Origin: a virus
IMG/VR virus record: IMGVR_UViG_3300027969_003010
Span: 6,856 to 70,855 of that record
Strand: one strand, 5' to 3'
Length of the DNA stretch: 64,000 bases
The position numbers and the translations under genes are program-made. Position 1 is the stretch's first letter; every line of letters starts with the position of its first letter. The notes beneath the pieces were generated by a model that was not told the DNA's origin, searched no databases, and saw only the letters and a program-made list of their open reading frames with translations. This document shows, piece by piece, positions 9,375 through 64,000 of this stretch.

Positions 9375-9857
9375 ATGGCAAAATTTTACTCAACAAAAAC
9401 TTACGGTAACGACAGAGGCTTATCCTGCTGTTTTAGACAATGGCGTAGCACACACAGCCATTGCTCATTACTGCACGGATATTCAATTGGTATCAAACTC
9501 ATATTTGAATGTGATACACTGGACGACAAAAACTGGTGTATGGACTTTGGTGGACTTAAAGGATTTAAAGAGTGGGCAGATCATATGTTTGATCATACTT
9601 TGGTAGTTGCCCAAGATGATCCTCAACTAGAAATGTTCAAGCAAATGGCTAGTTTAGGTTTGCAGGATCAAAGCGGAGTGTGTGATTTACGCATTGTACC
9701 TGCTGTAGGCTGTGAAATGTTTGCCAAACTTGCTTTTGACAAAATGGCTGAACTATTGTCTGCGGGAAATATGACCTATCCAATCAATCCAACAGTTAGG
9801 ATCAAATCAGTTGAAGTATTTGAACACGGAGCCAACTCGGCCATCTACGAAAGCTAA
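9375..9857 (+). CDS. queD: 6-carboxy-5,6,7,8-tetrahydropterin synthase / 6-pyruvoyl-tetrahydropterin synthase
   Basis: HCSLLHGY, MDFGGLK, FDHT, GCE, VEVFEHGANSA; AAGGAG RBS. Confidence 0.88.
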   Translation: MAKFYSTKTYGNDRGLSCCFRQWRSTHSHCSLLHGYSIGIKLIFECDTLDDKNWCMDFGGLKGFKEWADHMFDHTLVVAQDDPQLEMFKQMASLGLQDQSGVCDLRIVPAVGCEMFAKLAFDKMAELLSAGNMTYPINPTVRIKSVEVFEHGANSAIYES

Positions 9858-11158: not shown

Positions 11159-11184
11159 TAGGGCATTGCGCCCTATTATTATTT
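11154..11184. terminator. Bidirectional terminator
   Basis: AATAATAGGGC-attgc-GCCCTATTATT between convergent genes. Confidence 0.75.
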
Positions 11185-11385
11185 TGCCGCTTTTGGAGTA
11201 CGAGGCTTTTTAGCCGCCGGTGCTTTCTTAGCCGCTGGCTTTTTAGCTGGCGCCATTGATTCAACAACTGCCTCAACTGCTTTGTCAGAAACGGTGCTTA
11301 CAACTGGTGCTTCTACTTTGTAAGGCACTTCTGCTACTACTTCCGCAGGTTTGCCTGTAAAAAACTCTTTAATTTGTTTGAACAT
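11179..11385 (-). CDS. Small protein with Lys/Ala/Pro-rich (histone H1-like) tail
   Basis: PAKKPAAKKAPAAKK tail; AGGAGG RBS and TATAAATA (11408-11415, minus strand) upstream. Confidence 0.7.
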   Translation of the reverse strand: MFKQIKEFFTGKPAEVVAEVPYKVEAPVVSTVSDKAVEAVVESMAPAKKPAAKKAPAAKKPRTPKAAK

Positions 11386-11418
11386 TTTATGTTCCTCCTT
11401 AGTGATTTATTTATACAG

Positions 11419-11706
11419 TTATAATTGGCTAATTGTTTTTAAACTACTGGCCGGAATGTCCCACACTTTACGTGCTTCTACTCCTTTAGTTTGTGCAAAC
11501 TTTTTAGGGTCGCAGTCTGCACATACGTGGTAAAAGTTGTTGTTTATCCGTTTAGGATCCATTGATCCTTTATCTCGATATATTACTTCACTGCAACTAT
11601 CACATTGTAATACTACTACTGTCTTTTTACGGGCATAGGTATGTGTTTTACCACGGCTACTTGAGCGTACATGGTGTGATTCTCTAAACTCGGTGCGTAT
11701 GAACAT
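11419..11706 (-). CDS. Small putative zinc-binding protein
   Basis: CDSC and CADC pairs; GTAAATA motif upstream on the minus strand. Confidence 0.65.
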   Translation of the reverse strand: MFIRTEFRESHHVRSSSRGKTHTYARKKTVVVLQCDSCSEVIYRDKGSMDPKRINNNFYHVCADCDPKKFAQTKGVEARKVWDIPASSLKTISQL

Positions 11707-21000: not shown

Positions 21001-24000
21001 TAAAGTAAACAGTGGAACAAGTATTCAATTGTCTAGCACATACGCTAACGCAATTGCTGGTACTCCAACATTTATTACAAGTACTACTGGAACCCCAACT
21101 GGATTAACTTATTCAAGAATCAGCAATAACGTTGTGTTAAGTATAGCTCCAACCAGTACACCAAGTGGTAGTTTAACATTTACCAAAGCAACAATTCCTT
21201 ATATTACATTAGGTGATATCAAATATAGCATTACAAGTACAAGTGCAACACCTATTACAGTTACTAGACCAATAAGCAGAGGTCAAGTGGCGGTTACATA
21301 TCAACCAACAGGTAGCGTTACAGGTAACACTGTAAGTGGAAGTCCTAATATTCTTGGCGTATCTAGCTTAACTAATATTGTTGCTGGTTCAAGTATTCAG
21401 GGTGCAGGTATACCTAGTCAGTATGTTGTAACTGCTGTTAGTACAACAAGTCCAAGCACTATTAATCTAGTTGATGGAAGCGATGTAGTAGTTGGTAATA
21501 CAATTACGTTTGATCCAAGTCAACCAAGTTTTGGTGGAATTCCAGTTAAAGGTGGATTAAACAGTTCAACAACTTATACAACTGTCACTGGTACCAGTGT
21601 TACTAGTGCGGCAACATATACGGCTGTAGTAACCAAATCTAGTAGCGGTAAAGGTACTGGTGCAAAATTTACTGTTGTAAAAACTGGCTCTGGCACTTCA
21701 TACAACGGTGCAGTTACAATTACACTAGTTTCGCAAGGTGCGAACTATGCATTAACCGATACTATTACAATTAGTGGAGCAGTGTTAGGTGGTGGTGATA
21801 GTACTAACGACATGACATTTACGTTGGCTACTGCTGTTAACCAAGCGGCTTATTATGTTGTCAGTAAATCAACTAACGCAATAACTATTGCAACAACATT
21901 AGGCGGCTCTGCATTAACAAACATTACTACTGTAGCGGCAACAAGCACCATTGCTAGTTTTGCATTTGCTGATACTGTTGGTACTGCTACTGTTACAAGT
22001 GGAACATACACAATAGGTCAAGCTATTACTTTAACAGGAACTCCAACTGCTGGCGGCATTACTACTCCAGCGTATGTTACTGGAACAACTTATTATGTTG
22101 GTAAAGTAACTAGTGGAACTAGTATTCAACTTACTAGCTCATGGGTTAAAGCAACTCTTGCTATTCCAGTATTTGATTTATCAACTACTATTGGCACATT
22201 AACTCCAGGTGTAACTGCTACATTAACACAACCGTCTATTAATGGACGTACAGATAATTTGGTTATAAGCACAAGTAGTACAACAACATTTACAGCTACT
22301 CCTGATAATTCCAGTACTACTTTGACATCGGTTAGTAGTTTTGCTAACTTAGTAGTAGGTGCTACCATTACTGGAACTAATATTGTTGCTGGTACAATCA
22401 TTACAGCATTGAATGTTGCTGGAAGTACTATTACAATGAGTTCTGCCGCTAGCGGTGCGCCCGGCCCAGTTCTTATTACATGTTCAACAAACACTATTGT
22501 AACTAGTGCAAATTCAACAGCTACCGCAACAGATCAATTTATCACTTATAACAATTTAAGTACAACAATTAAAATTTTTACAAACGAAAGAAGTCAGTTT
22601 ATTGTTGCAGGAATGACTATATTTGGTAGCGGATTTACTAGCGGACAAACTGTTACTTCAGCAACAGTAAGTACAGCCGGCGATAATGCTACTGTTCTTG
22701 TTATTAGTGCGCAACCTGATAGTACACCATTTGGAACATTAGGATTTACAACTTTAACTAGTAACAGCGGCCCTTGGTACACAACATTACAAATACCAAC
22801 TCAAAGTGTTGCTCCTGTAGTTGATACATTCTATTCTGTAACAGGCAACGGTAATAGTGGTTATAATCAATTTGTACAATGCGTAGGTAGTTCAACTACT
22901 AGCATTACTTTAGCATACAGTACTGATCCAGAAACTGTAACTATAACTACATATAACCCAACTGGTTCTAGCGGCACAACAATGAAAGTTGCAAGTACTA
23001 CTGGTATCAACATTGGAGATTTAATACGTGGTGGTGGCACTGGTGGTTTCTTCTTAGGCCAAACTGTTACTGCAATTGTTGACGGTGTTACATTAACTAT
23101 TAGTGCTCCTCCAAGTGGAACACCTAATGGTAACTTGACATTTAATGATCCGTTCTTAGTGGCCGCACCAACTACTATTACTCCAATTATTACTGGTATT
23201 AGTCGTGCAATGAGTACTGTAACATCAACTCCGTTACGTGCTGGTTACTTGCAAGGAACAGCCGCACAGATTACTACACGTATTAGTACTTGCCGTTGTT
23301 CAGCACATGACTTGTTGGACATTGGTACTGGTGGTTACAATACTACTAACTACCCATATCAAATTTATGGTAACCCTTATCAAAAGGCAGATCAAACTAA
23401 AGAAGTGTTAGAAGAAACAGTTGGTCGTGTGTTCTATGTGACCACTGACCAAAACGGTATCTTCCGTGTAGGTCGATTCTTTACAGTTGACCAAGGTACT
23501 GGTACAGTTACATTCTCCGCATCCATTGCGTTGAGTAACTTGGACGGTTTAGGATTCAAGCGTGGTGTTACAGTTAGTGAATTCTCAACAGACAGTTCAA
23601 TGACAAACAATGCATCAGATACTGTGCCAACACAATCTGCGGTACGTGGATACATTGACAACAGACTAGGTGTACAACACTCAGGTGCTACAACTCCAGC
23701 TACATCGTTGATTGGTTCAGGATATATGAACCTAAGCGGACAGTTACCAATGAAAGGTAACCTGTCAATGGGCGGATTTACTATTGGTAGTGTAGGAACT
23801 CCAATCTTAAATACCGATGCAACAACTAAAATTTATGTTGACAACGTTGTTAACTCTCGAGATAGTTTGTACAAGTTAAAAGATACTGCGGCAAATATGC
23901 AGTTAAATTTTGCCAATGCACAACTCCCCGTATGGAGTTTTGCAACTACAAATAACAATTCAACAGCTGGTGCATGGACTAATGCAGGATTTGATATTTC

Positions 24001-31498: not shown

Positions 31499-32008
31499 AT
31501 GCGCCTAGACAAATATTCAAATCCAGTTTTTAATGAAATAGACATTTTTGATGCCTTATATCAAGGTTATCAATTTGATGTGCATGATACCATGCTTATC
31601 GAACGTACTGATGCTATCAAACAACTAGAAACTGAAATTGGTTTCAAATTCCTTGAACCTTACGAAACTCATTTTGAAATAAGAGATTACGATGCGGCTT
31701 GCCAAAGTAATTGGAATATGCCCGAGGAGTATAAAACCTTGGATATCGAAGAGTGGATTTGGACGCAAACACCGCCATGGGATCCACAACATACTAGAGT
31801 AACAGAAGAACTGGCGGCTTTTAAAGAACGTAATATGCTCAATTTGTTACGTTGGTTAAAATACTTCGTAGATACCATGAGAACAAATAATGTAGTATGG
31901 GGAGTAGGCCGAGGGTCTAGCGTTGCTAGTTACATATTGTATTTGATAGGTGTCCATAAAATTGACAGCATTAAATATAATTTAGACTGGCAGGAATTCT
32001 TAAGATAA
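31499..32008 (+). CDS. DNA polymerase III alpha (DnaE)-like fragment, 169 aa
   Basis: RVTEEL...WGVGRGSSVASYILYLIGVHKIDSIKYNL matches the DnaE GPGRGSAAGSLVAYxLGITxIDPxxYxL block; ends before the catalytic PDxD. Confidence 0.75.
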   Translation: MRLDKYSNPVFNEIDIFDALYQGYQFDVHDTMLIERTDAIKQLETEIGFKFLEPYETHFEIRDYDAACQSNWNMPEEYKTLDIEEWIWTQTPPWDPQHTRVTEELAAFKERNMLNLLRWLKYFVDTMRTNNVVWGVGRGSSVASYILYLIGVHKIDSIKYNLDWQEFLR

Positions 32009-54185: not shown

Positions 54186-56855
54186 ATGAGCTATGTAGAC
54201 GCATGGTTTGACCGTAATAACGATGTTATTAAAGTTGTCGAACGCAACAAAAAAGGTGAAAGGGAATTCAGAGACATTCCTGTACGCCACACATTTTACT
54301 ATAAAGACGCCCGTGGGAAGTATCTTTCAATTTACGGTGACGCTCTAAGCAAAGTTGTAGTTAAGAGTACTAAAGAACTACGCAAAGAACAAGCAATCAA
54401 TTCAGGTAAACAATTATTTGAATCTGATATTAATCCAATATTTGTCACATTAAGCGAAAATTATCTTAATGCGGACGCTCCAAAACTAAACGTAGCGTTT
54501 TTCGATATTGAAGTGGACTTTGATCCAGAAAGAGGCTATAGCACACCAGACGATGCGTTCATGCCTATTACTGCTATCGCTGTTCACTTACAATGGATGG
54601 AAACTATGGTTTGTCTAGCAGTTCCTCCTAAGACACTAACTATGGAAGAAGCTACCGCTATGGTTGAAGAGTTTCCAAATACTATGCTGTTTAAAACAGA
54701 AGCAGAAATGTTGGATGTATTTTTAGATTTGATTAAAGAAGCAGACATATTAACTGGTTGGAATTCAGAAGGTTATGATATTCCTTATACTGTCAACCGC
54801 GTTACTAAGGTACTGAGTAAGGACGATACTAGACGGTTCTGTTTGTTTGATCAATATCCTAAACGCAGAGAATATGAAAAGTTTGGGCGGCAATCAGTTA
54901 CATATGATCTAGTGGGTCGTGTACACCTGGACAGTCTTGAACTGTATCGTAAGTACACTTATGAAGAACGCCATAGTTATCGATTGGATGCTATTGCAGA
55001 ATATGAGTTGGGCGAACGTAAAACACAATACGAAGGCACACTGGATCAACTTTATAATCATGATTTTAAAAAGTTCATTGAATATAACAGACAAGACTGT
55101 GCGCTTCTTGATCGCCTAGACAAGAAGCTTAAATTCCTTGACCTTGCTAACACACTGGCACATGAAAATACTGTGCTACTGCAAACTACTATGGGTGCCG
55201 TGGCTGTAACTGAGCAGGCTATTATTAACGAAGCACATAGACGTAATATGCAAGTACCTAATCGTACTAAAATGGACGACCGTGAAGAAAATACTGCGGC
55301 GGCTGGTGCGTATGTTGCATATCCTAAAGAAGGCATTCACGACTGGATTGGTTCATTAGACATTAACAGTCTATATCCTAGTGCCATTCGTGCGCTTAAC
55401 ATGGGCCCAGAAACTATTATTGGTCAGTTACGTCAGACAATGACACAAGAGTATATCGATAATAAGATGGCAAAAGGTTCTAGTTTTGCGGCAAGCTGGG
55501 AAGGTATCTTTGGATCACTAGAATATACTGCTGTGATGAATCAAGAGATTGGCACAGACATTACTATCGACTGGGAGAATGGCCAGACTGATGTTATTAG
55601 TGCGGCCGAAGTTTATAAGTTAATATTTGACAGTCATCAGCCCTGGGTACTAAGTGCTAACGGTACTATCTTTACTTACGAAAAGGAAGGTATTATTCCC
55701 GGCTTGTTAAAGCGTTGGTATGCTGAACGTAAAGAGATGCAGGCCAAACTCAAAGACTGTATTAAGACTGGCAACAAAATTGAAGAAGAGTATTGGGACA
55801 AACGACAGTTGGTCAAGAAGATTAATCTAAACAGTTTGTATGGTGCTATTTTGAATCCTGGTTGTAGATTCTTTGACAAACGTATCGGACAGTCAACTAC
55901 ACTAACAGGTCGTCAGATTGTTAAACACATGGCGGCCAAAGTAAATGAAATTGTTGCCGGAGACTATGACTATCGCGGTAAAGCTATTATCTATGGCGAT
56001 ACAGACTCATGTTATTTTTCAGCATATAAGACATTACAACAAGATATTGATGCTGGTAATATTGAATGGACTAAAGAAAATGTGATTGCACTATATGATA
56101 ATATTGGCGAGGAAGTTAATACAACCTTTCCGCAGTTTATGTTGGATACATTTCACGTGCCAAAGACCCGTGGTGAAGTTATTAAAGCGGGTCGTGAGAT
56201 TGTAGGTAGTAAGAGTTTGTTTATTACTAAAAAGCGTTATGCCGTGCTGTACTATGACAAAGAAGGCAAACGGGCAGACGTAGATGGTAAACCTGGTAAG
56301 ATCAAGGCCATGGGCTTGGATTTGAAGCGTAGTGATACGCCGGAATTTATTCAGAACTTTTTAAGTGATGTACTTGAAAAGGTCTTAACAGGAGCCACCG
56401 AAACTGATGTATTGGCACACATAAGCGAATTTAGATTGAGATTTAAGAGTCGGCCGGGTTGGGAAAAAGGTAGTCCAAAACGTGCTAACAAAGTTACTGA
56501 ATATCAAGCTAAAGAAGCAAAAGCTGGTAAGGCTAATATGCCAGGGCATGTCCGTGCTAGTATTAATTGGAATACATTGAAGCGTATGTTTGGCGACAAG
56601 TATAGCATGAATATCACAGACGGACAAAAAGTAATTGTTTGCAAACTAAAACAAAATCCTATGGGCTTTACATCGGTAGCATATCCTGTAGATGAGTTAC
56701 GTTTGCCACAATGGTTTAAGGACATGCCGTTTGATCATGAAGAAATGGAACAGACTATTATTGATAACAAATTAGATAACCTAATCGGAGTATTGAAATG
56801 GGACGTTCGCAGTACTGAAGAAAAGAACACTTTTAATTCACTATTTGAGTTTTAA
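54186..56855 (+). CDS. Family B DNA polymerase (T4 gp43-like)
   Basis: Exonuclease FFDIE, GWNSEGYDIPY and YNRQD; polymerase DINSLYPS, KINLNSLYG, YGDTDS, KKRY. Confidence 0.96.
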   Translation: MSYVDAWFDRNNDVIKVVERNKKGEREFRDIPVRHTFYYKDARGKYLSIYGDALSKVVVKSTKELRKEQAINSGKQLFESDINPIFVTLSENYLNADAPKLNVAFFDIEVDFDPERGYSTPDDAFMPITAIAVHLQWMETMVCLAVPPKTLTMEEATAMVEEFPNTMLFKTEAEMLDVFLDLIKEADILTGWNSEGYDIPYTVNRVTKVLSKDDTRRFCLFDQYPKRREYEKFGRQSVTYDLVGRVHLDSLELYRKYTYEERHSYRLDAIAEYELGERKTQYEGTLDQLYNHDFKKFIEYNRQDCALLDRLDKKLKFLDLANTLAHENTVLLQTTMGAVAVTEQAIINEAHRRNMQVPNRTKMDDREENTAAAGAYVAYPKEGIHDWIGSLDINSLYPSAIRALNMGPETIIGQLRQTMTQEYIDNKMAKGSSFAASWEGIFGSLEYTAVMNQEIGTDITIDWENGQTDVISAAEVYKLIFDSHQPWVLSANGTIFTYEKEGIIPGLLKRWYAERKEMQAKLKDCIKTGNKIEEEYWDKRQLVKKINLNSLYGAILNPGCRFFDKRIGQSTTLTGRQIVKHMAAKVNEIVAGDYDYRGKAIIYGDTDSCYFSAYKTLQQDIDAGNIEWTKENVIALYDNIGEEVNTTFPQFMLDTFHVPKTRGEVIKAGREIVGSKSLFITKKRYAVLYYDKEGKRADVDGKPGKIKAMGLDLKRSDTPEFIQNFLSDVLEKVLTGATETDVLAHISEFRLRFKSRPGWEKGSPKRANKVTEYQAKEAKAGKANMPGHVRASINWNTLKRMFGDKYSMNITDGQKVIVCKLKQNPMGFTSVAYPVDELRLPQWFKDMPFDHEEMEQTIIDNKLDNLIGVLKWDVRSTEEKNTFNSLFEF

Positions 56856-56856
56856 T

Positions 56857-57630
56857 ATGAAAATTATAATTGCAGGGTACGGATTTGTTGGTAAGGCAGT
56901 GGCTAGTGTGTTACAAACTAAACACGAACTGGTCATTGTTGATCCAAAATATAACGATAATAAAATTACAGACCATATAGATGCAGATGGCATTATCATT
57001 TGTGTGTCTACTCCTACTACTGAAAATGGCATTTGCGATGTAAACAATATTGCCAATGTAATAGATCACGTTCCATTTTTTATGCCTGTAATGATCAAGA
57101 GTACATTAACTCCTCCTAATGTACAAGGATTTAAAGAAATATACGAAAATCATAGTATTGTATACAGCCCAGAATTTTTAAGAGCCGGTACTGCCAATAC
57201 AGATTTTGCCAATCAAAAATATATTATCATAGGCGGCGAAGATCCAGAAGGATTTTGGCACGAACTATTCACTACTACATTGCCTAATTGTAAAATGGTT
57301 TTTCAATGCAGTGAGGAAGAAGCATGTATGATCAAATACACTGTGAATTGTTTTCTTGCTCTTAAAGCCAGTTACTTTAATCAAATAGCAGATATTTGTG
57401 ATAACAATAAAATGGACTATGATATAGTAAGACACATTGTAAGTCAAGATACTAGGATTGGTGCAGGACATACATTAGTGCCGGGCCCAGATGGACAGCG
57501 AGGATGGGGAGGTGCATGTTTCCCCAAAGACACTGAAGCATTTTTACAATGGACTAAAACTATTGAGATGCCAGCAACATTGGTGGAATCATCTATCCAA
57601 TACAACACTAAAGTAAGAAAAAACTCTTGA
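56857..57630 (+). CDS. UDP-glucose dehydrogenase-like protein (lacks the C-terminal domain)
   Basis: GYGFVG, CVSTP, IKST, SPEFLR, GWGGACFPKD. Confidence 0.85.
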   Translation: MKIIIAGYGFVGKAVASVLQTKHELVIVDPKYNDNKITDHIDADGIIICVSTPTTENGICDVNNIANVIDHVPFFMPVMIKSTLTPPNVQGFKEIYENHSIVYSPEFLRAGTANTDFANQKYIIIGGEDPEGFWHELFTTTLPNCKMVFQCSEEEACMIKYTVNCFLALKASYFNQIADICDNNKMDYDIVRHIVSQDTRIGAGHTLVPGPDGQRGWGGACFPKDTEAFLQWTKTIEMPATLVESSIQYNTKVRKNS

Positions 57631-57673: not shown

Positions 57674-58405
57674 ATGAAAGATATTTTACAGGACTTAGTA
57701 GCACATACGCATAGTCTAGGATTTTTACTGCTAGTTAAAATTTCTAGCACAGACGCAGAAACAGTTATTGAAGGCATGGCAGAAGACCGTAGTGTTATTT
57801 TGCAAGCCAAAACAAACAAGCCAGTTAGCAATTTTGAAGGCACATTTGGTATGCCTAACTTGAACAAGTTAGATTTGCATTTGAAGTGCCCAGAATACAA
57901 AGAAGGCGCAAGTATTGAAGTAGTTACACAACAACGTAACGGCGAAGATATTCCAACAGGACTACATTTTGAAAATGCATTTGGCGACTTTAAAAACGAC
58001 TATCGTTTTATGAACGCAGAAATTATTAATGAACAAATGAAAACTGTCAAGTTCAAAGGCGCACAGTGGAACATTGAATTTGAACCTACAGTGGCCAGTA
58101 TTCAGAAATTGAAATATCAAGCGGCCGCACACACTGAAGAAACTACATTCCAAGTAACAACTAAAGATGATAACTTGATTTTTAGTTTTGGTGATGCAAC
58201 AACACATGCTGGTAGTTTTGTATTCCAAGCAGGTGTAACAGGTAAGTTAAAACAAACGTGGGCATGGCCAGTTAGCCAGTTGCAAAGTATTTTGAATTTA
58301 ACTGGTGACAAGATGGTTCGTATTAGTGATGCAGGTGCATTACAAATTACTGTAGACAGCGGACTTGCTGAATACAATTACATTCTTCCAGCACAAGCTA
58401 AATGA
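57674..58405 (+). CDS. Putative DNA polymerase sliding clamp (gp45-like)
   Basis: 243 aa, alternating beta/alpha pattern, next to polB, clamp loader present in the window; assignment is mainly by context. Confidence 0.6.
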   Translation: MKDILQDLVAHTHSLGFLLLVKISSTDAETVIEGMAEDRSVILQAKTNKPVSNFEGTFGMPNLNKLDLHLKCPEYKEGASIEVVTQQRNGEDIPTGLHFENAFGDFKNDYRFMNAEIINEQMKTVKFKGAQWNIEFEPTVASIQKLKYQAAAHTEETTFQVTTKDDNLIFSFGDATTHAGSFVFQAGVTGKLKQTWAWPVSQLQSILNLTGDKMVRISDAGALQITVDSGLAEYNYILPAQAK

Positions 58406-58569
58406 ACCAAGTAGATCCAAAAATACTCGAATTAGAAAGACAGATACAGTTCTTAAAGGAACAAGTTATTCGTCTTTCTAAAATGTGTGAGTACTTAGAT
58501 CGTGAACGGGTCCGTTCAAAAAATGACATAGGTCAAATCGTACAAGAAGTACGGGCAAGGAGAGGATAA
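58402..58569 (+). CDS. Small coiled-coil protein (55 aa, not in the ORF track)
   Basis: ATGA/TAATG-coupled on both sides; MNQVDPKILELERQIQFLKEQV... Confidence 0.6.
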   Translation: MNQVDPKILELERQIQFLKEQVIRLSKMCEYLDRERVRSKNDIGQIVQEVRARRG

Positions 58570-58829
58570 TGTTTTTACAAGAATGGGTTAAATCGCATCT
58601 TAGCCAACTAGAAATGGTTGGAGTTATTATGCGTATTATTAGTTTTAGTTTAGTATCATGGTTAGGTCCAGCAAGTCCGTTTATGTTTGTATGGGTCTTT
58701 AATACTATCGATGCTGTACTATTAACATACTGTGCAACAATTAGAAAAGATCCAGCTTATACGTTATTAAACGGTTTTTGGATTATTGTAGGGCTGGTAG
58801 GTATTGCTAGGGCAGGTGGATTACTTTAA
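58569..58829 (+). CDS. Small membrane protein
   Basis: Three hydrophobic segments; coupled to the TGT-like gene. Confidence 0.65.
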   Translation: MFLQEWVKSHLSQLEMVGVIMRIISFSLVSWLGPASPFMFVWVFNTIDAVLLTYCATIRKDPAYTLLNGFWIIVGLVGIARAGGLL

Positions 58830-60532
58830 TGAATAAGAACTTAACAGCGGCACAGAATGACTATGCTTACTTCTTGCCAGCAACAAGTGGTTTCTATAGT
58901 ACATATATAGGCAAACAACGCTACAGTAACTATGTAGATCCTGCTCGTATACCTAAGAGCTTTGGCCCTATGGGTATTGAAGCAATGAACTATTTGAATC
59001 CCAATGCGGCATTTTACTTTGACCATTGTTTGTATTCAGCTGGACATGCTAACTTAGATTTGAATAAACCCGATCCTAGTGAAGATATGTTTCGTAACAG
59101 AGACCGTAGCACCAGTTGGGTGTTAGGTGACTCGGGTGGCTTCCAGATTGGTAAAGGTGTTTGGGAAGGCGAATGGAATGATCCAAACGGCCCAGTAGTT
59201 GCACAGCGTATGGCGGAAGCAGTTGCTAAGGGTATTGAACTAGTTCCACAAGTACATCCTACGGGTCATCCTAAGACTGATAAGAATGGCAATCCAAAGT
59301 ATACTAAGATCGATCACGTTAAGTTGTATCAAGATAAACTAGATGCGGCACAGAAAAAACGTGAACAAGTATTAACTTGGATGGATGCATTAATGGATTA
59401 CGGTATGGTGCTGGATATTCCAGCATGGGTTGGTCGTAGTCCCGTGGGTGCTAAGAATAGTGGTGTTGGTAATTATCCACAGGCGGTTGCGGCTACCAAA
59501 TACAATAACGAATACTTTATCAAACATCGCACAGGTGCTTGTAAATTCTTAAATGTACTACAAGGCGAGAATCACGCACAAGCAGAAGATTGGTATCAGC
59601 AAATGAAAGACTTTTGTGATCCAACAAAATATGAACGTCCGTTCAACGGTTGGGCCATGGGTGGTCAGAATATGTGTGATGTGGATTTAGTATTACGTAG
59701 ATTAGTGGCATTGAAGTTCGATGGACTCCTTGAAAAGGGTCATCAAGACTGGATGCACTTCCTAGGCACCTCTAAATTAGAGTGGGCATTGTTATTAACT
59801 GACATACAACGAGCTATAAGGAAATATCATAATGAAAACTTTACCATCTCTTTTGACTGCGCCTCACCGTTCCTTGCCACAGCAAACGGTCAAATCTATG
59901 TCCAAACAGAAATCAAAGACAGAGAAAAATGGCTCTACAGAATGTTGCCGTCTCTTGATGACAAAAAGTACAGCCAGGATACAAGACTCTTCCAAGACGT
60001 AGTAGTACAAGATAAACACTTTACTAGTTTTACCACAAGTCCATTAATGGACGGTGTCGAAGTTAAAGACATTTGTATCTACGGTCCAAATGATCAAAAT
60101 AAAATTGGTAAAGTTGGTAAGACCAGCTGGGATAGTTTTACATACGCAATTATGATGGGCCATAATGTGTGGTTGCATTTGAACAGCGTACAAGAAGCTA
60201 ACCGCCAGTATGATGCTGGCTTGTGCCCAAGTATGCTGGTAGATGAAAGATTCAATCGTACATATTTTAAAGATGTAGTTGATGCTATCTTTAGTACAGA
60301 CGACAGGGCCATTGCTGAAGAGATTATCGAAGCATATAGTAAATTTTGGATGGCTATTCCAGGCACACGTGGCGCAATTGGTAAGAAAACAGTTAACGCT
60401 AGTACCATGTTTGCCAACTTGTTTGACGAAGTGGGCTCAAATAATGTACAATTAGAAGAAGAAGTAGATTTTGACGAATCTGCAATTGACAAACTAGACG
60501 ATTTAGAAGCAAGCGTCCATGACATTACCTGA
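58829..60532 (+). CDS. tRNA-guanine transglycosylase-like protein (DpdA-like DNA base-exchange enzyme)
   Basis: TGT barrel motifs in order: GDSGGFQ, MVLDIP, VLQG, GWAMGG, HFLG, SFDCASP, HN; no CxCxxC zinc site. Confidence 0.8.
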   Translation: MNKNLTAAQNDYAYFLPATSGFYSTYIGKQRYSNYVDPARIPKSFGPMGIEAMNYLNPNAAFYFDHCLYSAGHANLDLNKPDPSEDMFRNRDRSTSWVLGDSGGFQIGKGVWEGEWNDPNGPVVAQRMAEAVAKGIELVPQVHPTGHPKTDKNGNPKYTKIDHVKLYQDKLDAAQKKREQVLTWMDALMDYGMVLDIPAWVGRSPVGAKNSGVGNYPQAVAATKYNNEYFIKHRTGACKFLNVLQGENHAQAEDWYQQMKDFCDPTKYERPFNGWAMGGQNMCDVDLVLRRLVALKFDGLLEKGHQDWMHFLGTSKLEWALLLTDIQRAIRKYHNENFTISFDCASPFLATANGQIYVQTEIKDREKWLYRMLPSLDDKKYSQDTRLFQDVVVQDKHFTSFTTSPLMDGVEVKDICIYGPNDQNKIGKVGKTSWDSFTYAIMMGHNVWLHLNSVQEANRQYDAGLCPSMLVDERFNRTYFKDVVDAIFSTDDRAIAEEIIEAYSKFWMAIPGTRGAIGKKTVNASTMFANLFDEVGSNNVQLEEEVDFDESAIDKLDDLEASVHDIT

Positions 60533-60764
60533 TGAAAGATATCGAGCAGTTGTTCAGACTCAAAAGTTTTTACTTGAGATTTTGAATACTCCTCGAGTTC
60601 CAAAAGCAATCAAAGATCAAGCAAGAAGTTGTTTGCGTCATTATCCTAGCGACTGGGACATGAAACGTGCGGCTGACGGTGCACCAGATGTATTTCAAGA
60701 ACGTATGGAAGATGTAACTAGAATGTTTAAATCCTACGAGGAAAAGAAAAATGAGCAAGCGTAG
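60519..60764 (+). CDS. Small hypothetical protein
   Basis: MTLPDERYRAV...LRHYP; overlaps both neighbours. Confidence 0.7.
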   Translation: MTLPDERYRAVVQTQKFLLEILNTPRVPKAIKDQARSCLRHYPSDWDMKRAADGAPDVFQERMEDVTRMFKSYEEKKNEQA

Positions 60765-61635
60765 TCTAGTAATTGGCATGGGTATTGGTAACTTGTACAA
60801 AGATGTACTGACAAAACTTGGCCACAAGGTAGTCACAGTTGACAAGGACACTAGCAAAGGTGCTGATTTTGAATCAGTAGATTCAGCTTTGGTAGTACAC
60901 GGCTTATTTGATACTGTACATATCTGTACTCCCAACTTTACACACTTTGAAATTGCGGCCAGAGTTGCTCCGCACAGTAAAATTGTGTTTATTGAAAAGC
61001 CCGGTGTTGCTACAAGTGATACATGGTCTAAACTTGTAACTACATTTAAACAAACACGTTTCATAATGGTTAAAAACAATATGTGGCGTGACAACATAGC
61101 TGAATTAACTGAACTAGCAGGCCGGGCTAAAACTGTAAAAATACGTTGGATTAGAAAGAATTGTATTCCTAGTCCAGGCAGTTGGTTCACAACTAAAAAA
61201 TTAGCATTTGGTGGAGTTAGCAGAGACTTAATGCCACACTTGTTGAGTTTATATGTGGCCATGAATCCTGATTGGAAACATGAAAAAATGTCTGGTCAAA
61301 CTGCCATGCAATGTTGGGAATTAAAAGATATTGAAAACACAGAGTATGGCACTGTTGATCCCAATGGCACTTACAATGTTGACGACATGTGTGTAATCAA
61401 CTTTGGTAACAAATGGCGACTTGCGGCCAATTGGCGTAGTCAGGATGAAGAAGATAGTTCTATAGTGTTTGTCATGCCAGACAATGCAATAGAACGATTT
61501 GAATTAGGGTGGTGCCCAGAAGAAGCATATCATAATATGATTGTGGATGCTATTACTAACATGGATAATTCTGATTTTTGGTTACAGCAATATGCTGTTG
61601 ATACATGGATACATGAGAGAATAGAAAAACTATGA
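60751..61635 (+). CDS. Gfo/Idh/MocA family NAD(P)-dependent oxidoreductase
   Basis: IGMGIG, ICTPNFTH, FIEKP, GGVSRDLMPH. Confidence 0.88.
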   Translation: MSKRSLVIGMGIGNLYKDVLTKLGHKVVTVDKDTSKGADFESVDSALVVHGLFDTVHICTPNFTHFEIAARVAPHSKIVFIEKPGVATSDTWSKLVTTFKQTRFIMVKNNMWRDNIAELTELAGRAKTVKIRWIRKNCIPSPGSWFTTKKLAFGGVSRDLMPHLLSLYVAMNPDWKHEKMSGQTAMQCWELKDIENTEYGTVDPNGTYNVDDMCVINFGNKWRLAANWRSQDEEDSSIVFVMPDNAIERFELGWCPEEAYHNMIVDAITNMDNSDFWLQQYAVDTWIHERIEKL

Positions 61636-62513
61636 CACGCTGTTTACAAACAACAGGGCACGGCTTCTTTGAAGAAGTAGAGTACGACAAACCGGAACCT
61701 ACTTCAGATCAAATTGAAGTACGAGCCGTAATGACTGGTGTATGTCGCAGTGACATCGATATGATGATGGGAAACTTTGGACCATTGCCACTCAGTATGC
61801 AAGGGCATGAAGGATTGGGACAAGTCACACGAGTTGGTTCATTAGTTACCGGTGTTAAAGAAGGCGACTATGTTGCTACACGTGGTGAACCTGCGTATGC
61901 GGATTATTACAATGTACGAGATGAGGAATTTGTAGTGGTACCAGAAGCACATCCTCGCTATATACTAGAACCGGTAGCATGTGGTATTAACTGTATTGTT
62001 GACGATTTTAAAAATAGAGCCAATACTAAAACTATTATCTTAGGTAGTGGTTTTCTAGCGTGGGTAGTTTATAACGCATTAAAGCTGTATTTTCCTAGAA
62101 TGGAAATCGACATACTAGGCTCTAGTAATCAAGAGCTGTGGGGCGATAAACTGTTGCTTGGTACTAGTGAAAGCTATGATAATGTTATTGACTTGAGTGG
62201 AAAATATGATTTAGGTACAGACATTGGCCTAAATAATAATGCCTTAATTGTAGATGCTGTGGGTAAAGCAGTAAGTAGAGAAGAAGCACAGGCACAACTT
62301 TGGAAAGCCTGTGCTACTGTTAAACCAAGTCCAAGAACACCAAAATTTATTGATGCCATGATCCGAGCACGTTATATGATTGAAAACGGTGAACTAGAGG
62401 TTGATAGTTTTTGGACTCAGTGTTATAATCGTAACACTGAATGGCAACAAGCATTTGCGGATGGTGTGGATCGTCCAAATGGTTACAGCAGAGGTTATAT
62501 TAAATGGGACTAA
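61632..62513 (+). CDS. Zinc-dependent medium-chain alcohol dehydrogenase
   Basis: GVCRSD, GHEGLG, LEPVACG, LGSGFL; structural-zinc lobe absent. Confidence 0.88.
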   Translation: MTRCLQTTGHGFFEEVEYDKPEPTSDQIEVRAVMTGVCRSDIDMMMGNFGPLPLSMQGHEGLGQVTRVGSLVTGVKEGDYVATRGEPAYADYYNVRDEEFVVVPEAHPRYILEPVACGINCIVDDFKNRANTKTIILGSGFLAWVVYNALKLYFPRMEIDILGSSNQELWGDKLLLGTSESYDNVIDLSGKYDLGTDIGLNNNALIVDAVGKAVSREEAQAQLWKACATVKPSPRTPKFIDAMIRARYMIENGELEVDSFWTQCYNRNTEWQQAFADGVDRPNGYSRGYIKWD

Positions 62514-63019
62514 ACACTGAAGAACGGCAAGGTGTTGTTTATTTTACAGGTTACGAAGTCGAGCATACTATCTGTCACGGTATGTTTACATTGTTTGTTG
62601 TAGGCACACCGCCTATTGAAGAAATTCTTACAAAAGCTAAAGAAGCTGGTGTAAAACATATCTACTTTGGCACTAGTCAAAGTTTTAATCCAACGGCAAT
62701 CAGCCACGAAGAATATCGAGCATGGGATAATGTTATTATTCCTTGCTTAAAGAAAGATTATTGGGTGACTCTTGATTTTGACAGCAGTCACAACGAAGGT
62801 GTACTTGAATCTGGATACAGTGAATATCCCCGATTTGTACCAATGATTAGTGTTAAGTTACCTTACATCAATCAACACAACTACAATGCCACACTCAAAC
62901 TGGATGACCGAACTTGGGGTGCTACCAATCCAGGTGTGTGGACACATCAACTACATGACCTAATGAGTAAAGACAAGTACACTCATTGGGATCAATACAC
63001 ACAAGACACAACTTTATGA
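62504..63019 (+). CDS. Hypothetical protein
   Basis: FTGYEVEHT, HIYFG, TNPGVW; coupled within the operon. Confidence 0.7.
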   Translation: MGLNTEERQGVVYFTGYEVEHTICHGMFTLFVVGTPPIEEILTKAKEAGVKHIYFGTSQSFNPTAISHEEYRAWDNVIIPCLKKDYWVTLDFDSSHNEGVLESGYSEYPRFVPMISVKLPYINQHNYNATLKLDDRTWGATNPGVWTHQLHDLMSKDKYTHWDQYTQDTTL

Positions 63020-63612
63020 AACCCAAGATTAAAACATTAAAAATTGCCGAACAATTGATCGGACAAACTTTGCCTCCTACATACGGCGGTGCTAGTGGAA
63101 GAGGTTTAGAATTGTTAATGATTTCTTTGGGAATTCCGTTACAAAACGGATCAGGTGCTGATTGGAAACTGTTTGGACTAGAAGTTAAGTCTCGCAACCT
63201 TGAAGCAACAAGTCCACAAACTATTGGAACTATACTTCCAGAAAATATGGTGGTAACAGATTGGACAAACAGTTTGGTAGCTGAAAAATTTCAACAACAG
63301 TTCAGAGTACACACAAGAAACAATGTAATTGTATCAGCCAGAGTGTATGATTTTTCACCAAAGTTCATACAAGATAAACTAAGTAAAGCGTGGAATATAC
63401 TCAAAGATTGCGTAGAACTAGAACTAGTTGCTCAGGCAAATGATCCAACTCATGAATTACCATTGTATATTCCTGGCACACGCTATGGTTATTTAGAAAG
63501 ACAAGAAAATATACGTTCCTATCATTTTAGAATGTCCTCTACAGCTATGGAAGAACTAGAAGGCATGGCATTGTCAACCCTTAGCTCACTTTTTGAAGAA
63601 ACAACAGTATGA
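63016..63612 (+). CDS. MutH/Sau3AI-like PD-(D/E)xK endonuclease
   Basis: GRGLE...GADW...LEVKS, resembling the MutH active site; ATG at 63016 overlaps the upstream stop. Confidence 0.6.
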   Translation: MKPKIKTLKIAEQLIGQTLPPTYGGASGRGLELLMISLGIPLQNGSGADWKLFGLEVKSRNLEATSPQTIGTILPENMVVTDWTNSLVAEKFQQQFRVHTRNNVIVSARVYDFSPKFIQDKLSKAWNILKDCVELELVAQANDPTHELPLYIPGTRYGYLERQENIRSYHFRMSSTAMEELEGMALSTLSSLFEETTV

Positions 63613-64000
63613 TTATTAAACAAGACATTAGACCTAACAAAATGATTTGGGTTACCTTTCGTAAGGAAGGCATACATAAATACCCGGCGGCGCTGACTGA
63701 TCCAGCGTTGGCTACAGGAGATGAATATGACGTATCGTTTTTGGGTTACCCTCATCGCCACATCTTTCATTTCAGGGTGTGGATCAATGTGCTCCACAAT
63801 GATAGAGACATCGAGTTTATCCAGTTCAAACGATGGCTTGAATCGCTGTATAATGGTCAAGGTTCCGTTTTGAGCCTTGACTACAAGAGTTGTGAGATGA
63901 TGTCAGACGATCTGTTTGACGTTATTTCCAATAAGTATCCAGGTCGCGAGATCTGGATTGAAATCTCCGAAGACGGAGAAAATGGTTCGTTTATCAAATA
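63609..64000 (+). CDS. Putative T-fold (QueD/QueF-like) protein, 3' end outside window; not in the ORF track
   Basis: MIIKQDIRPNKMIWVTFRKEGIHKYP...HRHIFHFRVWI...DRDIEFIQFK...SCEMMS...IEISEDGENGS resembles the H..HxH / DF / SCE / VxE pattern of PTPS-like proteins. Confidence 0.55.
   Translation, partial: MIIKQDIRPNKMIWVTFRKEGIHKYPAALTDPALATGDEYDVSFLGYPHRHIFHFRVWINVLHNDRDIEFIQFKRWLESLYNGQGSVLSLDYKSCEMMSDDLFDVISNKYPGREIWIEISEDGENGSFIK

What the first reader, a model, noticed from the sequence alone, without database searches (positions are those of the whole stretch)
58829..64000. DpdA-like transglycosylase in one coupled operon with two dehydrogenases and a T-fold protein: candidate undescribed 7-deazaguanine DNA hypermodification
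Seen in sequence: a TGT-fold protein with all catalytic motifs, followed by overlapping genes for a Gfo/Idh/MocA oxidoreductase, a Zn alcohol dehydrogenase, an unknown protein, a nuclease and a QueD/QueF-like protein. The block sits just downstream of polB and the clamp, and a separate queD is at 9375. Established: phage DpdA enzymes swap G in DNA for 7-deazaguanines (preQ0, preQ1, ADG, G+) supplied by FolE/QueD/QueE/QueC, and the pathways I know do not use a Gfo plus MDR dehydrogenase pair. Inference: the pair may make a new side chain (a redox-modified C7 group or a sugar/cyclitol adduct), or a different base for exchange.
Basis: partly seen in the sequence, partly recalled or inferred. Interest (0 to 1): 0.88.

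Follow-up and report, generated by a model that had tools for sequence, protein, structure and literature searches.

The report
Phage 7-deazaguanine cluster with dehydrogenase cassette
This is the front half of a jumbo-phage gene cluster that swaps guanine in DNA for a 7-deazaguanine base; most of its parts are catalogued, but an added dehydrogenase pair and conserved unknown genes hint at an unidentified extra modification.

Summary
ORF 58829-60532 folds as a tRNA-guanine-transglycosylase barrel (pLDDT 90.9; Z 18.5) and keeps both catalytic Asp motifs. It is followed by overlapping genes for a Gfo/Idh/MocA enzyme, a Zn-MDR dehydrogenase, a 171-aa unknown and a QueD-like protein.

The two flanking genes are not new. 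Their PA5oct orthologues are listed as DpdA3 and DpdL in Cui et al. 2023 (Supplementary Data S1). The window stops at the contig end. Relatives continue with a GT4-like glycosyltransferase, a phosphoribosyltransferase, FolE and QueE. Two near-complete relatives have no QueC, which marks the CDG/7-deazaguanine branch.

The dehydrogenase pair is accessory:
- 56 of 58 close loci have it, but only 8 of 78 more distant loci do.
- It is always Gfo plus MDR together, directly upstream of p171.
- The p171 sequence type tracks the pair better than DpdA3 does (2 versus 5 state changes).
- PA5oct carries the same trio 25 kb from its DpdA3.

In relatives, the same slots hold radical-SAM enzymes, 2OG oxygenases and a flavin halogenase.

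Verdict: a known kind of system with an undescribed tailoring variant. The chemistry is unknown. PA5oct, a cultured phage whose modified G has not been identified, makes it testable.

The parts
9375..9857 (+). QueD/PTPS-family protein (CxxxHGY variant, as in the ACP17 and phiST QueD). Supplies CPH4 for the deazaguanine pathway.
   Evidence: Pfam PF01242 E 1.5e-14. NCBIfam QueD E 2.2e-8, below its cut-off. Alignment A4.
56845..57630 (+). Truncated NDP-sugar (UDP-glucose) dehydrogenase-like protein, 261 aa, overlapping the end of polB. It has the N-terminal and central domains only.
   Evidence: Pfam PF00984 E 3.1e-21 and PF03721 E 1.9e-13. phrog_9148. Found in 71 of 80 close loci.
57674..58405 (+). 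Conserved 243-aa protein (phrog_12062). It always lies between polB and DpdA3. Its PA5oct homologue is annotated as a structural protein. Clamp identity is not shown.
58569..58829 (+). Small hydrophobic 86-aa ORF abutting DpdA3. It is poorly conserved: tblastn found it in 1 of the rows visible.
58829..60532 (+). DpdA-type DNA guanine transglycosylase with a TGT-fold barrel. Its PA5oct orthologue is listed as DpdA3. Invariant residues include D101 and S102 (DSGGFQ) and D343 (FDC). The acidic tail after about residue 512 is modelled with low confidence.
60519..60764 (+). 81-aa BPSL0761-family protein of unknown role. It follows DpdA3 in 72 of 80 close loci. In more distant loci a DUF465 protein sits in the same slot.
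   Evidence: NCBIfam NF041728, 68.5 bits against a cut-off of 35..
60751..61635 (+). Gfo/Idh/MocA-family NAD(P) oxidoreductase and first gene of the accessory pair. The Rossmann GxGxG, EKP (82-84) and D159-x3-H163 motifs are conserved across 56 distinct homologues.
61632..62513 (+). Zn-type medium-chain dehydrogenase/reductase and second gene of the pair. C38, H59/E60, E113/C117 and GSGFLA (138-143) are conserved across 50 distinct homologues. There is no structural-zinc Cys loop.
62504..63019 (+). p171, a conserved protein with no known family. It is a core member of DpdA-DpdL clusters in this phage group and in ACP17. Its sequence type tracks the presence of the Gfo/MDR pair.
62986..63612 (+). 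p208, a sporadic insert with no family match. It is present in the window and in 7 of 80 close and 2 of 80 distant loci. Other loci carry HNH or GIY-YIG homing endonucleases in the same slots, so it is probably a mobile gene.
63609..63998 (+). DpdL, a QueD-like protein and predicted CDG decarboxylase with the signature FLGYPHRHIF. It is cut by the contig end one codon before its stop.
   Evidence: phrog_17812 E 9e-32. tblastn to ACP17 (54%), PA5oct (55%) and phiST (31%). Alignment A4. Motif definition from the paper. Listing.

Best explanation
The block is the 5' half of a roughly 12-kb 7-deazaguanine DNA-modification cluster of an uncultured jumbo phage distantly related to Pseudomonas phage PA5oct.

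Shown or strongly supported:
- FolE, QueD and QueE, with no QueC, make 7-carboxy-7-deazaguanine.
- The 567-aa TGT-fold enzyme, a DpdA whose PA5oct orthologue is listed as DpdA3, is the best candidate to exchange guanine in DNA for the deazaguanine base.
- The last ORF is DpdL, the QueD-like protein proposed to decarboxylate CDG to 7-deazaguanine.

Inferred:
- The conserved neighbours go beyond plain dDG. These are p171, a GT4-like glycosyltransferase and a phosphoribosyltransferase. The last two lie just past the contig end.
- Gfo, MDR and a matched p171 variant form an accessory tailoring cassette.

The mechanism I commit to, with odds of about 0.3 for this specific chemistry:
1. Gfo oxidises a hydroxyl of a sugar or polyol unit.
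2. MDR reduces a keto intermediate, giving an epimer or polyol.
3. p171 handles that altered unit.
4. The glycosyltransferase attaches it to the deazaguanine base or its precursor.
5. The phosphoribosyltransferase may recycle the guanine that the exchange releases.
For: Transglycosylase:
- AF2 model with pLDDT 90.9.
- All top 50 Foldseek hits are TGT, best E 3.9e-8.
- VIA Z 18.5, rmsd 4.4, 302 residues aligned to 2ash.
- hhalign to E. coli Tgt gives 90.9% and pairs DSGGFQ, LDIP, LQG, GWAMGG, FLG and FDC with the Tgt motifs.
- D101, S102 and D343 are invariant in 72 sequences.

Known-family listing:
- PA5oct QCG76197.1 is listed as DpdA3 and QCG76199.1 as DpdL. They share 33% and 55% identity with the window proteins.
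- The window protein carries the DpdL motif LxxxHRHxF.

Pathway:
- FolE and QueE are found in 4 of 4 longer relatives.
- QueC is found in 0 of 4, two of which are at least 96% complete.

Core cluster:
- DpdL is present in 36 of 36 and 59 of 59 loci that reach far enough.
- GT is present in 36 of 36 and 56 of 59.

Links to other phages:
- The p171 homologue in ACP17 lies directly upstream of its DpdA2.
- GT lies within 3 kb of DpdL in Phosso, BCSR5, BUDD and X1.

Cassette:
- Gfo and MDR never occur singly except at contig ends, and always in the order DpdA3-Gfo-MDR-p171.
- PA5oct has Gfo-MDR-p171 contiguous.
- The pair's presence needs 2 state changes on the p171 tree against 5 on the DpdA3 tree.
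- Catalytic motifs are conserved.
- The closest solved relative of Gfo is the glycoside 3-oxidase DgpA, E 6.7e-9.
- The nearest cellular look-alikes of MDR are ribulose-5-phosphate reductases, score 0.95. This is a lead only.

Other tailoring enzymes occupy the same slots in relatives.

PA5oct DNA resists five restriction enzymes in a pattern that suggests modified G. The base was not identified.
Against: - No chemistry was measured for any phage that carries p171, the GT or the pair.
- phiST makes dDG without p171 or a GT: neither search found a phiST hit. These genes are therefore not needed for the known product and could serve something else.
- 7-deazaguanine has no obvious hydroxyl for a glycosyltransferase.
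- The GT assignment is weak. Pfam Glycos_transf_1 matched 3 of 32 members and Glyco_trans_1_2 matched 5 of 32. The PDB profile hit had E 0.34.
- In PA5oct the trio lies 25 kb from DpdA3, so adjacency is not required.
- The loci are relatives of one phage group. Shared ancestry inflates co-occurrence.
- The trees are FastTree only and contain long branches.
- The subfamily label is shaky. hhalign gives 84% to phiST DpdA3, only 8% to RHph_I1_18 DpdA3, and 96% to ACP17 DpdA2.
- The DpdL decarboxylase activity is itself only predicted. Heterologous tests failed.
Confidence: 0.6

Rival explanations
1. This is a plain dDG system. DpdA3, DpdL, FolE, QueD and QueE replace G with unsubstituted 7-deazaguanine, as in phiST. 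Gfo, MDR, p171 and the GT-like gene are passengers with other roles, such as host sugar metabolism or glycan work, and have drifted into a recombination-prone region.
For: - phiST has dDG with DpdA3 and DpdL alone.
- A vibriophage with full 7-deazaguanine substitution is reported.
- The pair is absent from 70 of 78 distant loci.
- In PA5oct the pair is unlinked from DpdA3.
- The region also holds homing endonucleases.
- Other sugar-type genes are scattered through the contig.
Against: - p171 sits between DpdA3 and DpdL in 78 of 80 distant loci, and inside the tight ACP17 que cluster.
- GT follows DpdL in 36 of 36 and 56 of 59 loci, and in several isolate lineages.
- The genes overlap, with no terminator between them.
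- The p171 type covaries with the pair.
- Expression of ACP17 DpdA plus DpdL alone gave no dDG.
Confidence: 0.25
2. The two dehydrogenases act directly on the C7 substituent of the deazaguanine. An example is stepwise reduction of a carboxyl or formyl group to hydroxymethyl. The result is a new C7 side chain that DpdA then inserts.
For: - A Zn-MDR is the classic aldehyde/alcohol enzyme.
- CDG carries a carboxyl group, and there is no QueC to convert it.
- A hydroxymethyl group would give the GT an acceptor.
Against: - The GT is core and the pair is accessory, so the acceptor must exist without the pair.
- No carboxylate-activating enzyme was seen next to the pair.
- The nearest relatives of Gfo act on sugar hydroxyls.
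- DpdL, the predicted decarboxylase, is present in every locus that reaches far enough.
Confidence: 0.1
3. The route is pre-replicative. The phosphoribosyltransferase turns the free deazaguanine base into a nucleotide. The phage polB, which is always adjacent, then incorporates it. The TGT-like enzyme only proofreads or tops up.
For: - A PRTase lies in the cluster. Pfam PF00156 gives E 3.9e-15 in the closest relative and 2e-11 in PA5oct.
- The cluster always abuts polB.
- DpdA3-type phages reach 100% replacement.
Against: - Cui et al. argue for post-replicative insertion in all DpdA-encoding phages.
- The transglycosylase keeps both catalytic Asp residues under strong conservation.
- tblastn detected the PRTase in only 11 of 35 distant loci that reach far enough.
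Confidence: 0.08
4. The 567-aa protein is a tRNA-guanine transglycosylase that modifies phage or host tRNA.
For: It has a TGT fold and TGT catalytic motifs.
Against: - There is no hit to Pfam TGT. Only 2 of 72 family members reach E 0.043.
- No Cys is conserved at 90% or more, so there is no sign of the TGT zinc site.
- The orthologue is listed as DpdA3.
- It is always linked to polB and DpdL.
- PA5oct DNA itself is restriction-resistant.
Confidence: 0.02

Closest known systems
Cellulophaga phage phiST dDG system (DpdA3 + DpdL + FolE/QueD/QueE; Cui et al. 2023, PMC10516641)
   Same: Both have a TGT-superfamily transglycosylase and a QueD-like DpdL with the LxxxHRHxF motif. Both have FolE, QueD and QueE without QueC, next to the replicative polymerase genes.
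   Different: - The phiST DpdA3 is 259 aa and only weakly related (hhalign 84%).
- phiST gave no tblastn hit for p171 or the GT-like gene.
- phiST gave no hit for Gfo or MDR.
- The phiST product, dDG, has been measured. The product here has not.
Pseudomonas jumbo phage PA5oct (Wroclawvirus) cluster EST35_0316-0322 plus EST35_0362-0364
   Same: It has orthologues of DpdA3 (33%), DpdL (55%), Gfo (31%), MDR (36%), p171 (43%) and p243 (34%). It also has the GT-like gene, a PRTase and QueE, and shares the synteny polB-p243-DpdA3. Its DNA behaves as G-modified.
   Different: - In PA5oct the GT lies between DpdA3 and DpdL.
- The Gfo-MDR-p171 trio is 25 kb away.
- It has no p81 homologue near DpdA3.
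Acidovorax phage ACP17 cluster (QueD, FolE, p171-like, DpdA2, GT-like, DpdL, QueE)
   Same: It has p171 (33%), the GT-like gene (36%) and DpdL (54%) in one tight cluster with a DpdA. hhalign of the DpdA families gives 96%.
   Different: - Its DpdA is listed as DpdA2.
- It has no Gfo or MDR.
- Its genome is smaller, at 156 kb.
DgpA, a Gfo/Idh/MocA glycoside 3-oxidase of gut bacteria
   Same: It is the closest solved sequence relative of the window Gfo protein (7xr9, E 6.7e-9, residues 38-215). It oxidises the 3''-hydroxyl of a sugar already attached to an aglycone (abstracts in the listing).
   Different: - The similarity is low and partial.
- DgpA works with a C-C lyase, DgpB/C, in catabolism. 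No such partner was seen here.
Bacterial Dpd system (DpdA/DpdB/DpdC) and tRNA TGT
   Same: They share the fold and the catalytic Asp pair.
   Different: - There is no PADLOC hit (PADLOC's coverage of the bacterial Dpd proteins is recalled, not checked).
- There is no Pfam TGT hit.
- No DpdB or DpdC was looked for or seen in the window annotation.
- The zinc-site cysteines are not conserved.

Membership tests
TGT superfamily (tRNA-guanine transglycosylase fold) | (beta/alpha)8 TGT barrel | tested here: met
   AF2 pLDDT 90.9. Foldseek top 50 are all TGT, best E 3.9e-8. VIA Z 18.5, rmsd 4.4, 302 residues aligned.
TGT superfamily (tRNA-guanine transglycosylase fold) | Two catalytic aspartates (E. 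coli Tgt D89 in DSGGFQ and D264 in FDC; residue roles recalled) | tested here: met
   hhalign pairs GDSGGFQ with TDSGGFQ and SFDCASP with MFDCVMP. D101 and D343 are invariant in 72 sequences.
Canonical tRNA TGT (Pfam PF01702) | Match to the family profile above its cut-off | tested here: not met
   The window protein has no hit. Only 2 of 72 family members match, at best E 0.043.
Canonical tRNA TGT (Pfam PF01702) | CxCxxC...H zinc site (recalled) | tested here: inconclusive
   No Cys is among the invariant or 90%-conserved columns of A1. The structural positions were not mapped.
Phage DpdA, subfamily DpdA3 (Cui et al. 2023) | Homology to proteins the authors list as DpdA3 | tested here: inconclusive
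   The PA5oct orthologue QCG76197.1 is listed as DpdA3 and shares 33% identity over 81% at E 2e-66. However, hhalign gives 84% to phiST DpdA3, 8% to RHph_I1_18 DpdA3 and 96% to ACP17 DpdA2.
Phage DpdA (any subfamily) | Encoded together with 7-deazaguanine synthesis genes | tested here: met
   QueD is in the window. FolE and QueE are in 4 of 4 longer relatives. Neighbourhoods of homologues are shown.
Phage DpdA (any subfamily) | Exchanges guanine in DNA for a 7-deazaguanine | not testable with these tools
   Biochemistry is needed. Cui et al. could not show activity for DpdA3 in E. coli.
DpdL (predicted CDG decarboxylase) | QueD-like protein homologous to phiST CGPG_00067 and the ACP17 DpdL | tested here: met
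   tblastn gives 54% identity to ACP17 and 31% to phiST (E 3e-8). The PA5oct homologue is listed as DpdL. The fold was not modelled here.
DpdL (predicted CDG decarboxylase) | LxxxHRHxF in place of the QueD CxxxHGH motif | tested here: met
   The window protein has FLGYPHRHIF. The motif is as defined in section 16 of the paper.
DpdL (predicted CDG decarboxylase) | Decarboxylates CDG | not testable with these tools
   This is also unproven in print.
Gfo/Idh/MocA oxidoreductases | N-terminal Rossmann domain profile above its cut-off | tested here: met
   PF01408, 35.1 bits against a cut-off of 24.
Gfo/Idh/MocA oxidoreductases | EKP motif and Dx3H catalytic motif (recalled) | tested here: met
   E82-K83-P84 and D159...H163 are conserved in at least 95% of 56 distinct homologues.
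Zn medium-chain dehydrogenases/reductases | GroES-like ADH_N domain above its cut-off, with catalytic Zn ligands (ligand roles recalled) | tested here: met
   PF08240, 41.9 bits against 23.5. C38, H59, E60, E113 and C117 are conserved in at least 95% of 50 distinct homologues.
Zn medium-chain dehydrogenases/reductases | C-terminal Rossmann domain (PF00107) | tested here: inconclusive
   There is no Pfam hit, but a conserved GSGFLA motif is present.
GT4 glycosyltransferases (gene beyond the contig end, in relatives) | GT-B/GT4 profile match | tested here: inconclusive
   All matches are below cut-offs. Glycos_transf_1 matched 3 of 32 members and Glyco_trans_1_2 matched 5 of 32. PA5oct and ACP17 copies gave E 1e-3 to 2.5e-4. 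The PDB profile hit to WlaC had E 0.34. Depositors annotate the Phosso, PAC2 and PhiXhv copies as glycosyltransferase.

The most novel reading that the evidence does not exclude
A very large group of environmental jumbo phages, with PA5oct as a cultured member, uses 7-deazaguanine as a scaffold for combinatorial DNA hypermodification. The core genes are DpdA, p171, DpdL, a GT-like gene and a PRTase. A swappable tailoring slot can hold the Gfo-MDR-p171 cassette, radical-SAM enzymes, 2OG oxygenases or a flavin halogenase. On this reading, the DNA carries glycosylated, redox-remodelled, hydroxylated, alkylated or even halogenated 7-deazaguanines that have never been described. The window's lineage would carry the sugar- or polyol-remodelled version.
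Probability: 0.35. Interest if true: 0.9.

Novelty: new variant of a known kind. Interest (0 to 1): 0.68.

Why it matters
Eight 7-deazaguanine DNA bases are known, and none carries a sugar, polyol or halogen. In this phage group the DpdA/DpdL genes are embedded in a conserved set of unexplained genes, with a variable slot of redox, radical and halogenating enzymes. That is the usual signature of an arms race over a DNA mark.

The family is abundant. The search found 933 clusters at 50% identity. In the 90%-identity database, 7580 of the 8000 scored candidates matched.

There are cultured members. PA5oct carries the dehydrogenase trio. ACP17 carries p171 and the GT but not the pair. A single LC-MS comparison could therefore show whether a new class of modified guanine exists. 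It could also explain why DpdA plus DpdL alone failed to give dDG in E. coli. The answer bears on restriction and CRISPR evasion, on sequencing artefacts in jumbo-phage metagenomics, and on enzymes for DNA labelling.

Tried and rejected
- Sequence-only identification of the 567-aa protein failed. It matched no relevant family in Pfam, PHROGs, NCBIfam or PADLOC and gave no PDB match. Megablast of the block against phages gave nothing.
- I considered that p171 might be a degenerate QueE. Three QueE structures appear among the best fold matches (Z 6.2, 6.0 and 5.7 with 125-129 residues aligned). These Z values are in the noise range. hhalign of p171 against QueE gives 0.6%, and the PDB profile search finds no QueE. 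Rejected for lack of support.
- Foldseek for p171 gave a best E of 0.043. The Atlas gave only sub-0.9 leads to TIM-barrel glycosidase fragments.
- The search for homologous proteins for p171 listed only relatives of 78% identity or more, so it added no depth.
- Tests of the 243-aa protein as a clamp gave nothing. There was no BLASTP alignment to the RHph_I1_18 clamp and no PDB hit.
- The nuclease reading of p208 found no support.
- FolE, QueC and QueE were not found in the 70.9-kb contig. This is uninformative, because the record is about 19% complete.
- No complex prediction or read mapping was attempted.

Full report
**What is there.** The window is bases 6856-70855 of a 70,855-base IMG/VR virus record that CheckV rates 19% complete, and the window ends at the contig end. 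On the + strand, after a T4-type polB (54186-56855; phrog_262 E 1e-197), lie these genes:
- a truncated NDP-sugar-dehydrogenase-like gene (56845-57630)
- a conserved 243-aa gene
- two small ORFs
- the block of the finding: 567 aa, 81 aa, 294 aa, 293 aa, 171 aa, 208 aa and an open-ended 130 aa

Each junction in the block overlaps by 1 to 34 nt. No terminator-like site lies within it. Pfam supports the Gfo/Idh/MocA and Zn-ADH assignments above their cut-offs, and the QueD at 9375. It also missed the 81-aa BPSL0761-family ORF.

**The 567-aa protein is a TGT-fold transglycosylase of the DpdA kind.** No sequence library names it, but the family is very large. In the 90%-identity database, 7580 of 8000 scored candidates had E <= 0.001, and all 120 listed were at least 72% identical. 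Among the 50%-identity representatives, 933 clusters had E <= 0.001 and 137 had E <= 1e-30.

I aligned the window protein with 71 of the 150 listed representatives, picked by hand for near-full length (A1). The AlphaFold2 model has mean pLDDT 90.9. Three results support the fold and the catalytic residues:
- All top 50 Foldseek matches in the PDB are tRNA-guanine transglycosylases, best E 3.9e-8.
- VIA-align gives Z 18.5, rmsd 4.4 A, 302 residues aligned to 2ash.
- hhalign of A1 against E. coli Tgt (90.9%, E 1.1e-6) pairs GDSGGFQ, LDIP, LQG, GWAMGG, FLG and SFDCASP with the Tgt motifs. D101, S102 and D343 are invariant.

No cysteine is conserved at 90% or more, so the classical zinc site does not seem to be kept.

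**Both flanking families are already catalogued.** tblastn finds homologues in 13 phage records: 11 PA5oct-like Pseudomonas jumbo phages at 33% identity, Sinorhizobium phage Phosso, and Vibrio phage 2.275.O. In PA5oct the homologue EST35_0316 lies after polB and the p243 homologue, with QueE 4 kb downstream. In the Vibrio phage it lies beside QueF-like, YhhQ, QueC, Gat and FolE genes.

I read Supplementary Data S1 of Cui et al. 2023 (PMC10516641). It lists PA5oct QCG76197.1 as DpdA3 and QCG76199.1 as DpdL, with FolE, QueD and QueE and no QueC. The window's last ORF is 55% identical to that DpdL, 54% to the ACP17 DpdL and 31% to phiST's. It carries the published DpdL signature LxxxHRHxF, as FLGYPHRHIF. 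The 131-aa copy in a relative shows that the window copy lacks only one codon plus the stop.

The subfamily label is less secure than the superfamily. My profile comparisons give 96% to the ACP17 'DpdA2', 84% to phiST DpdA3 and 8% to RHph_I1_18 DpdA3.

**What lies beyond the contig end.** I fetched two sets of related loci.
- Set A is the best 80 of at least 595 confirmed IMG/VR stretches found with the 567-aa protein (72-96% identity).
- Set B is the best 80 of at least 589 found with an alignment of p171 homologues, with PA5oct first.

The order in set A is polB, ugd-like, p243, DpdA3, p81, Gfo, MDR, p171, (p208), DpdL, GT-like, PRTase, FolE, QueE, all on one strand. DpdL and the GT-like gene are present in 36 of 36 set-A loci that reach 2.5 kb past p171. 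In set B, DpdL is present in 59 of 59 such loci and the GT-like gene in 56 of 59. FolE is present in 32 of 35 set-B loci that reach 7.5 kb.

In the closest extending relative (L017; its DpdL is 100% identical), Pfam confirms a phosphoribosyltransferase (E 3.9e-15), a 2OG oxygenase and FolE. Four longer relatives, two of them 100% and 96% complete, have FolE and QueE but no QueC. The pathway therefore stops at CDG. This is the branch that gives dDG in phiST according to Cui et al..

**The dehydrogenase pair is an accessory cassette tied to p171.**
- In set A, 56 of the 58 loci holding both DpdA3 and p171 have Gfo then MDR between them. The two exceptions are L082 and L083.
- In set B, only 8 of 78 such loci have the pair.
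- Neither gene occurs alone, except in six loci where the contig ends in or just after Gfo.

Among isolates:
- Full-length Gfo hits are confined to the 11 PA5oct-like records; 11 of 18 records reach at least 80% coverage.
- MDR hits at 36% identity are the same 11 records. Four records labelled Listeria match at about 20% (three of them over at least 80% of the query), and one 'Bacteriophage sp.' record matches 22% of the query.

In PA5oct, Gfo, MDR and p171 are contiguous (EST35_0362-0364), 25 kb from DpdA3. p171 also has a homologue in ACP17, directly upstream of its DpdA and inside the que cluster.

Both enzymes look competent. The Rossmann, EKP and Dx3H motifs of Gfo are conserved in at least 95% of 56 distinct homologues (33-92% identity). 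So are C38, H59/E60, E113/C117 and GSGFLA of MDR in 50 distinct homologues (35-92% identity). The motif roles are recalled, not tested.

On FastTree trees of 114 distinct rows (50 with the pair, 64 without), the presence of the pair needs 2 changes on the p171 tree and 5 on the DpdA3 tree. Shuffled labels give a mean of 37 and a minimum of 29 in 200 shuffles. Five loci without the pair have DpdA3 74-77% identical to the window's but p171 only 44-49% identical. Three loci with the pair have DpdA3 60-70% identical but p171 73-74% identical. Gfo, MDR and a matched p171 variant therefore seem to move together. Two caveats apply: the rows are kin, and the trees are quick ones with long branches.

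**What p171 and the GT-like protein are.** The p171 model (pLDDT 86.1, from 42 sequences) has no convincing fold match. Foldseek gives a best E of 0.043. The best VIA Z is 6.7 to a STAS protein. QueE structures appear at Z 5.7-6.2, within the noise range. hhalign does not support homology to QueE.

The GT-like protein is 37% identical between PA5oct and ACP17 and about 40% identical to the relatives' copies. Its Pfam matches to GT4-type families are all below cut-off. Some depositors annotate it as a glycosyltransferase. It lies within 3 kb of DpdL in Phosso, BCSR5, BUDD and X1 as well. phiST, the one DpdL phage with a measured product, gave no hit for p171 or the GT.

**A variable tailoring slot.** I clustered the 256 unassigned ORFs found between DpdA3 and the GT in sets A and B into 56 groups, and scanned 28 representatives. 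They include:
- four radical-SAM proteins, one with a B12-binding domain and one with a SPASM domain
- five 2OG-Fe(II) oxygenase-like proteins
- HNH and GIY-YIG homing endonucleases
- a 513-aa flavin-dependent tryptophan-halogenase-family protein (E 8e-99), in the two loci L030 and L031

The halogenase sits between MDR and p171 in a tightly packed run.

**What is in print.** I saw the following of each paper:
- Cui et al. 2023: abstract, passages, section 16 and the spreadsheet supplement. It does not contain 'glycosyl', 'sugar' or 'dehydrogenase'.
- The END-nuclease preprint (PMC12191111), passages only. [quoted passage not shown] The authors infer a modified G and note QueE and PTPS genes. 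In the passages shown they did not identify the base.
- A 2026 jumbo-phage review, passages only. It speaks only of predicted deazaguanine incorporation.
- The MIJ3 paper. A term search found no mention of deazaguanine, queuosine, restriction, dehydrogenase or glycosyl.

The searches found no paper that links a Gfo/MDR pair, a glycosyltransferase or p171 to DpdA.

**How it most likely works.** Shown or well supported: this is a CDG-branch deazaguanine pathway with a DpdA-type transglycosylase and DpdL. Inferred: p171, the GT-like enzyme and the PRTase take the chemistry beyond dDG, and the Gfo-MDR-p171 cassette remodels a sugar or polyol unit.
- The closest solved relative of Gfo is DgpA, which oxidises the 3''-hydroxyl of a glycoside.
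- The nearest cellular look-alikes of MDR are ribulose-5-phosphate reductases. This is a lead only.
- The PRTase may recycle released guanine. This is pure inference.

The main rival is that the DNA carries plain dDG and the extra genes do something else. No calculation here can separate the two readings. One LC-MS experiment on PA5oct, ACP17 and phiST can.

Noticed in passing
L030:12704-14245 (also L031:11298-12839): A 513-aa flavin-dependent halogenase (Pfam Trp_halogenase, E 8e-99) sits between MDR and p171 inside the deazaguanine cluster. Two 2OG-Fe(II) oxygenase-like genes follow before DpdL. The pyrrole ring of 7-deazaguanine would be a plausible halogenation substrate.
   Followed up: partly
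L098:6668-7804; L106:6088-7635 and 10345-11553; L129:8501-9502; L139:9504-10091; L149:7396-7974: Radical-SAM enzymes (one with a B12-binding domain, one with SPASM) and 2OG-Fe(II) oxygenases occupy the slots between DpdA3, p171, DpdL and the GT-like gene in distant relatives that lack the Gfo/MDR pair.
   Followed up: partly
L005 (contig bases 2302-7551) and window 1-5210: Four tandem radical-SAM genes, the last a twitch/SPASM type (NF033640, E 6.5e-88), are followed by unknowns. After those come a 412-aa NDP-sugar dehydrogenase and a DegT-type aminotransferase that appears split or truncated (196 aa). This may be a second modification or glycan cluster.
   Followed up: no
window 12095-25927: One open reading frame of 4610 aa, not examined.
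   Followed up: no
window 32253-53767: A run of host-like proteostasis and iron genes: Cpn10-like, DnaJ, peptide deformylase, a ClpB-type AAA+ protein and ferritin-like proteins. dCMP deaminase and PhoH lie nearby.
   Followed up: no
window 56845-57630; L045:18569-19444: Truncated UDP-glucose-dehydrogenase-like proteins (261-291 aa, no C-terminal domain) recur next to the cluster. One lies after polB and a second lies just before FolE in a complete relative.
   Followed up: no
L001:10419-11383 (PA5oct EST35_0320, EST35_0321): PA5oct has a short NAD-epimerase-like protein (172 aa) and a phosphoribosyltransferase (144 aa) between DpdL and QueE. The epimerase-like gene recurs in 9 of 80 set-B loci.
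   Followed up: partly
L003:8723-9835 (Vibrio phage 2.275.O NVP2275O_469): The DpdA homologue of this phage is followed by a 370-aa protein with a weak amidoligase-like match. That gene sits beside QueF-like, YhhQ, QueC, Gat and FolE genes. This is a different, preQ-type context for the same transglycosylase family.
   Followed up: no
L001:608-5834 (PA5oct): The PA5oct polB is annotated in two pieces split by a Hef-like homing endonuclease. The window's polB is a single 889-aa ORF.
   Followed up: no
window 31499-32008: A 169-aa ORF matches only a piece of the DNA polymerase III alpha NTPase domain (E 6e-10). A similar 'DnaE-like' fragment is annotated near the Phosso DpdA homologue.
   Followed up: no
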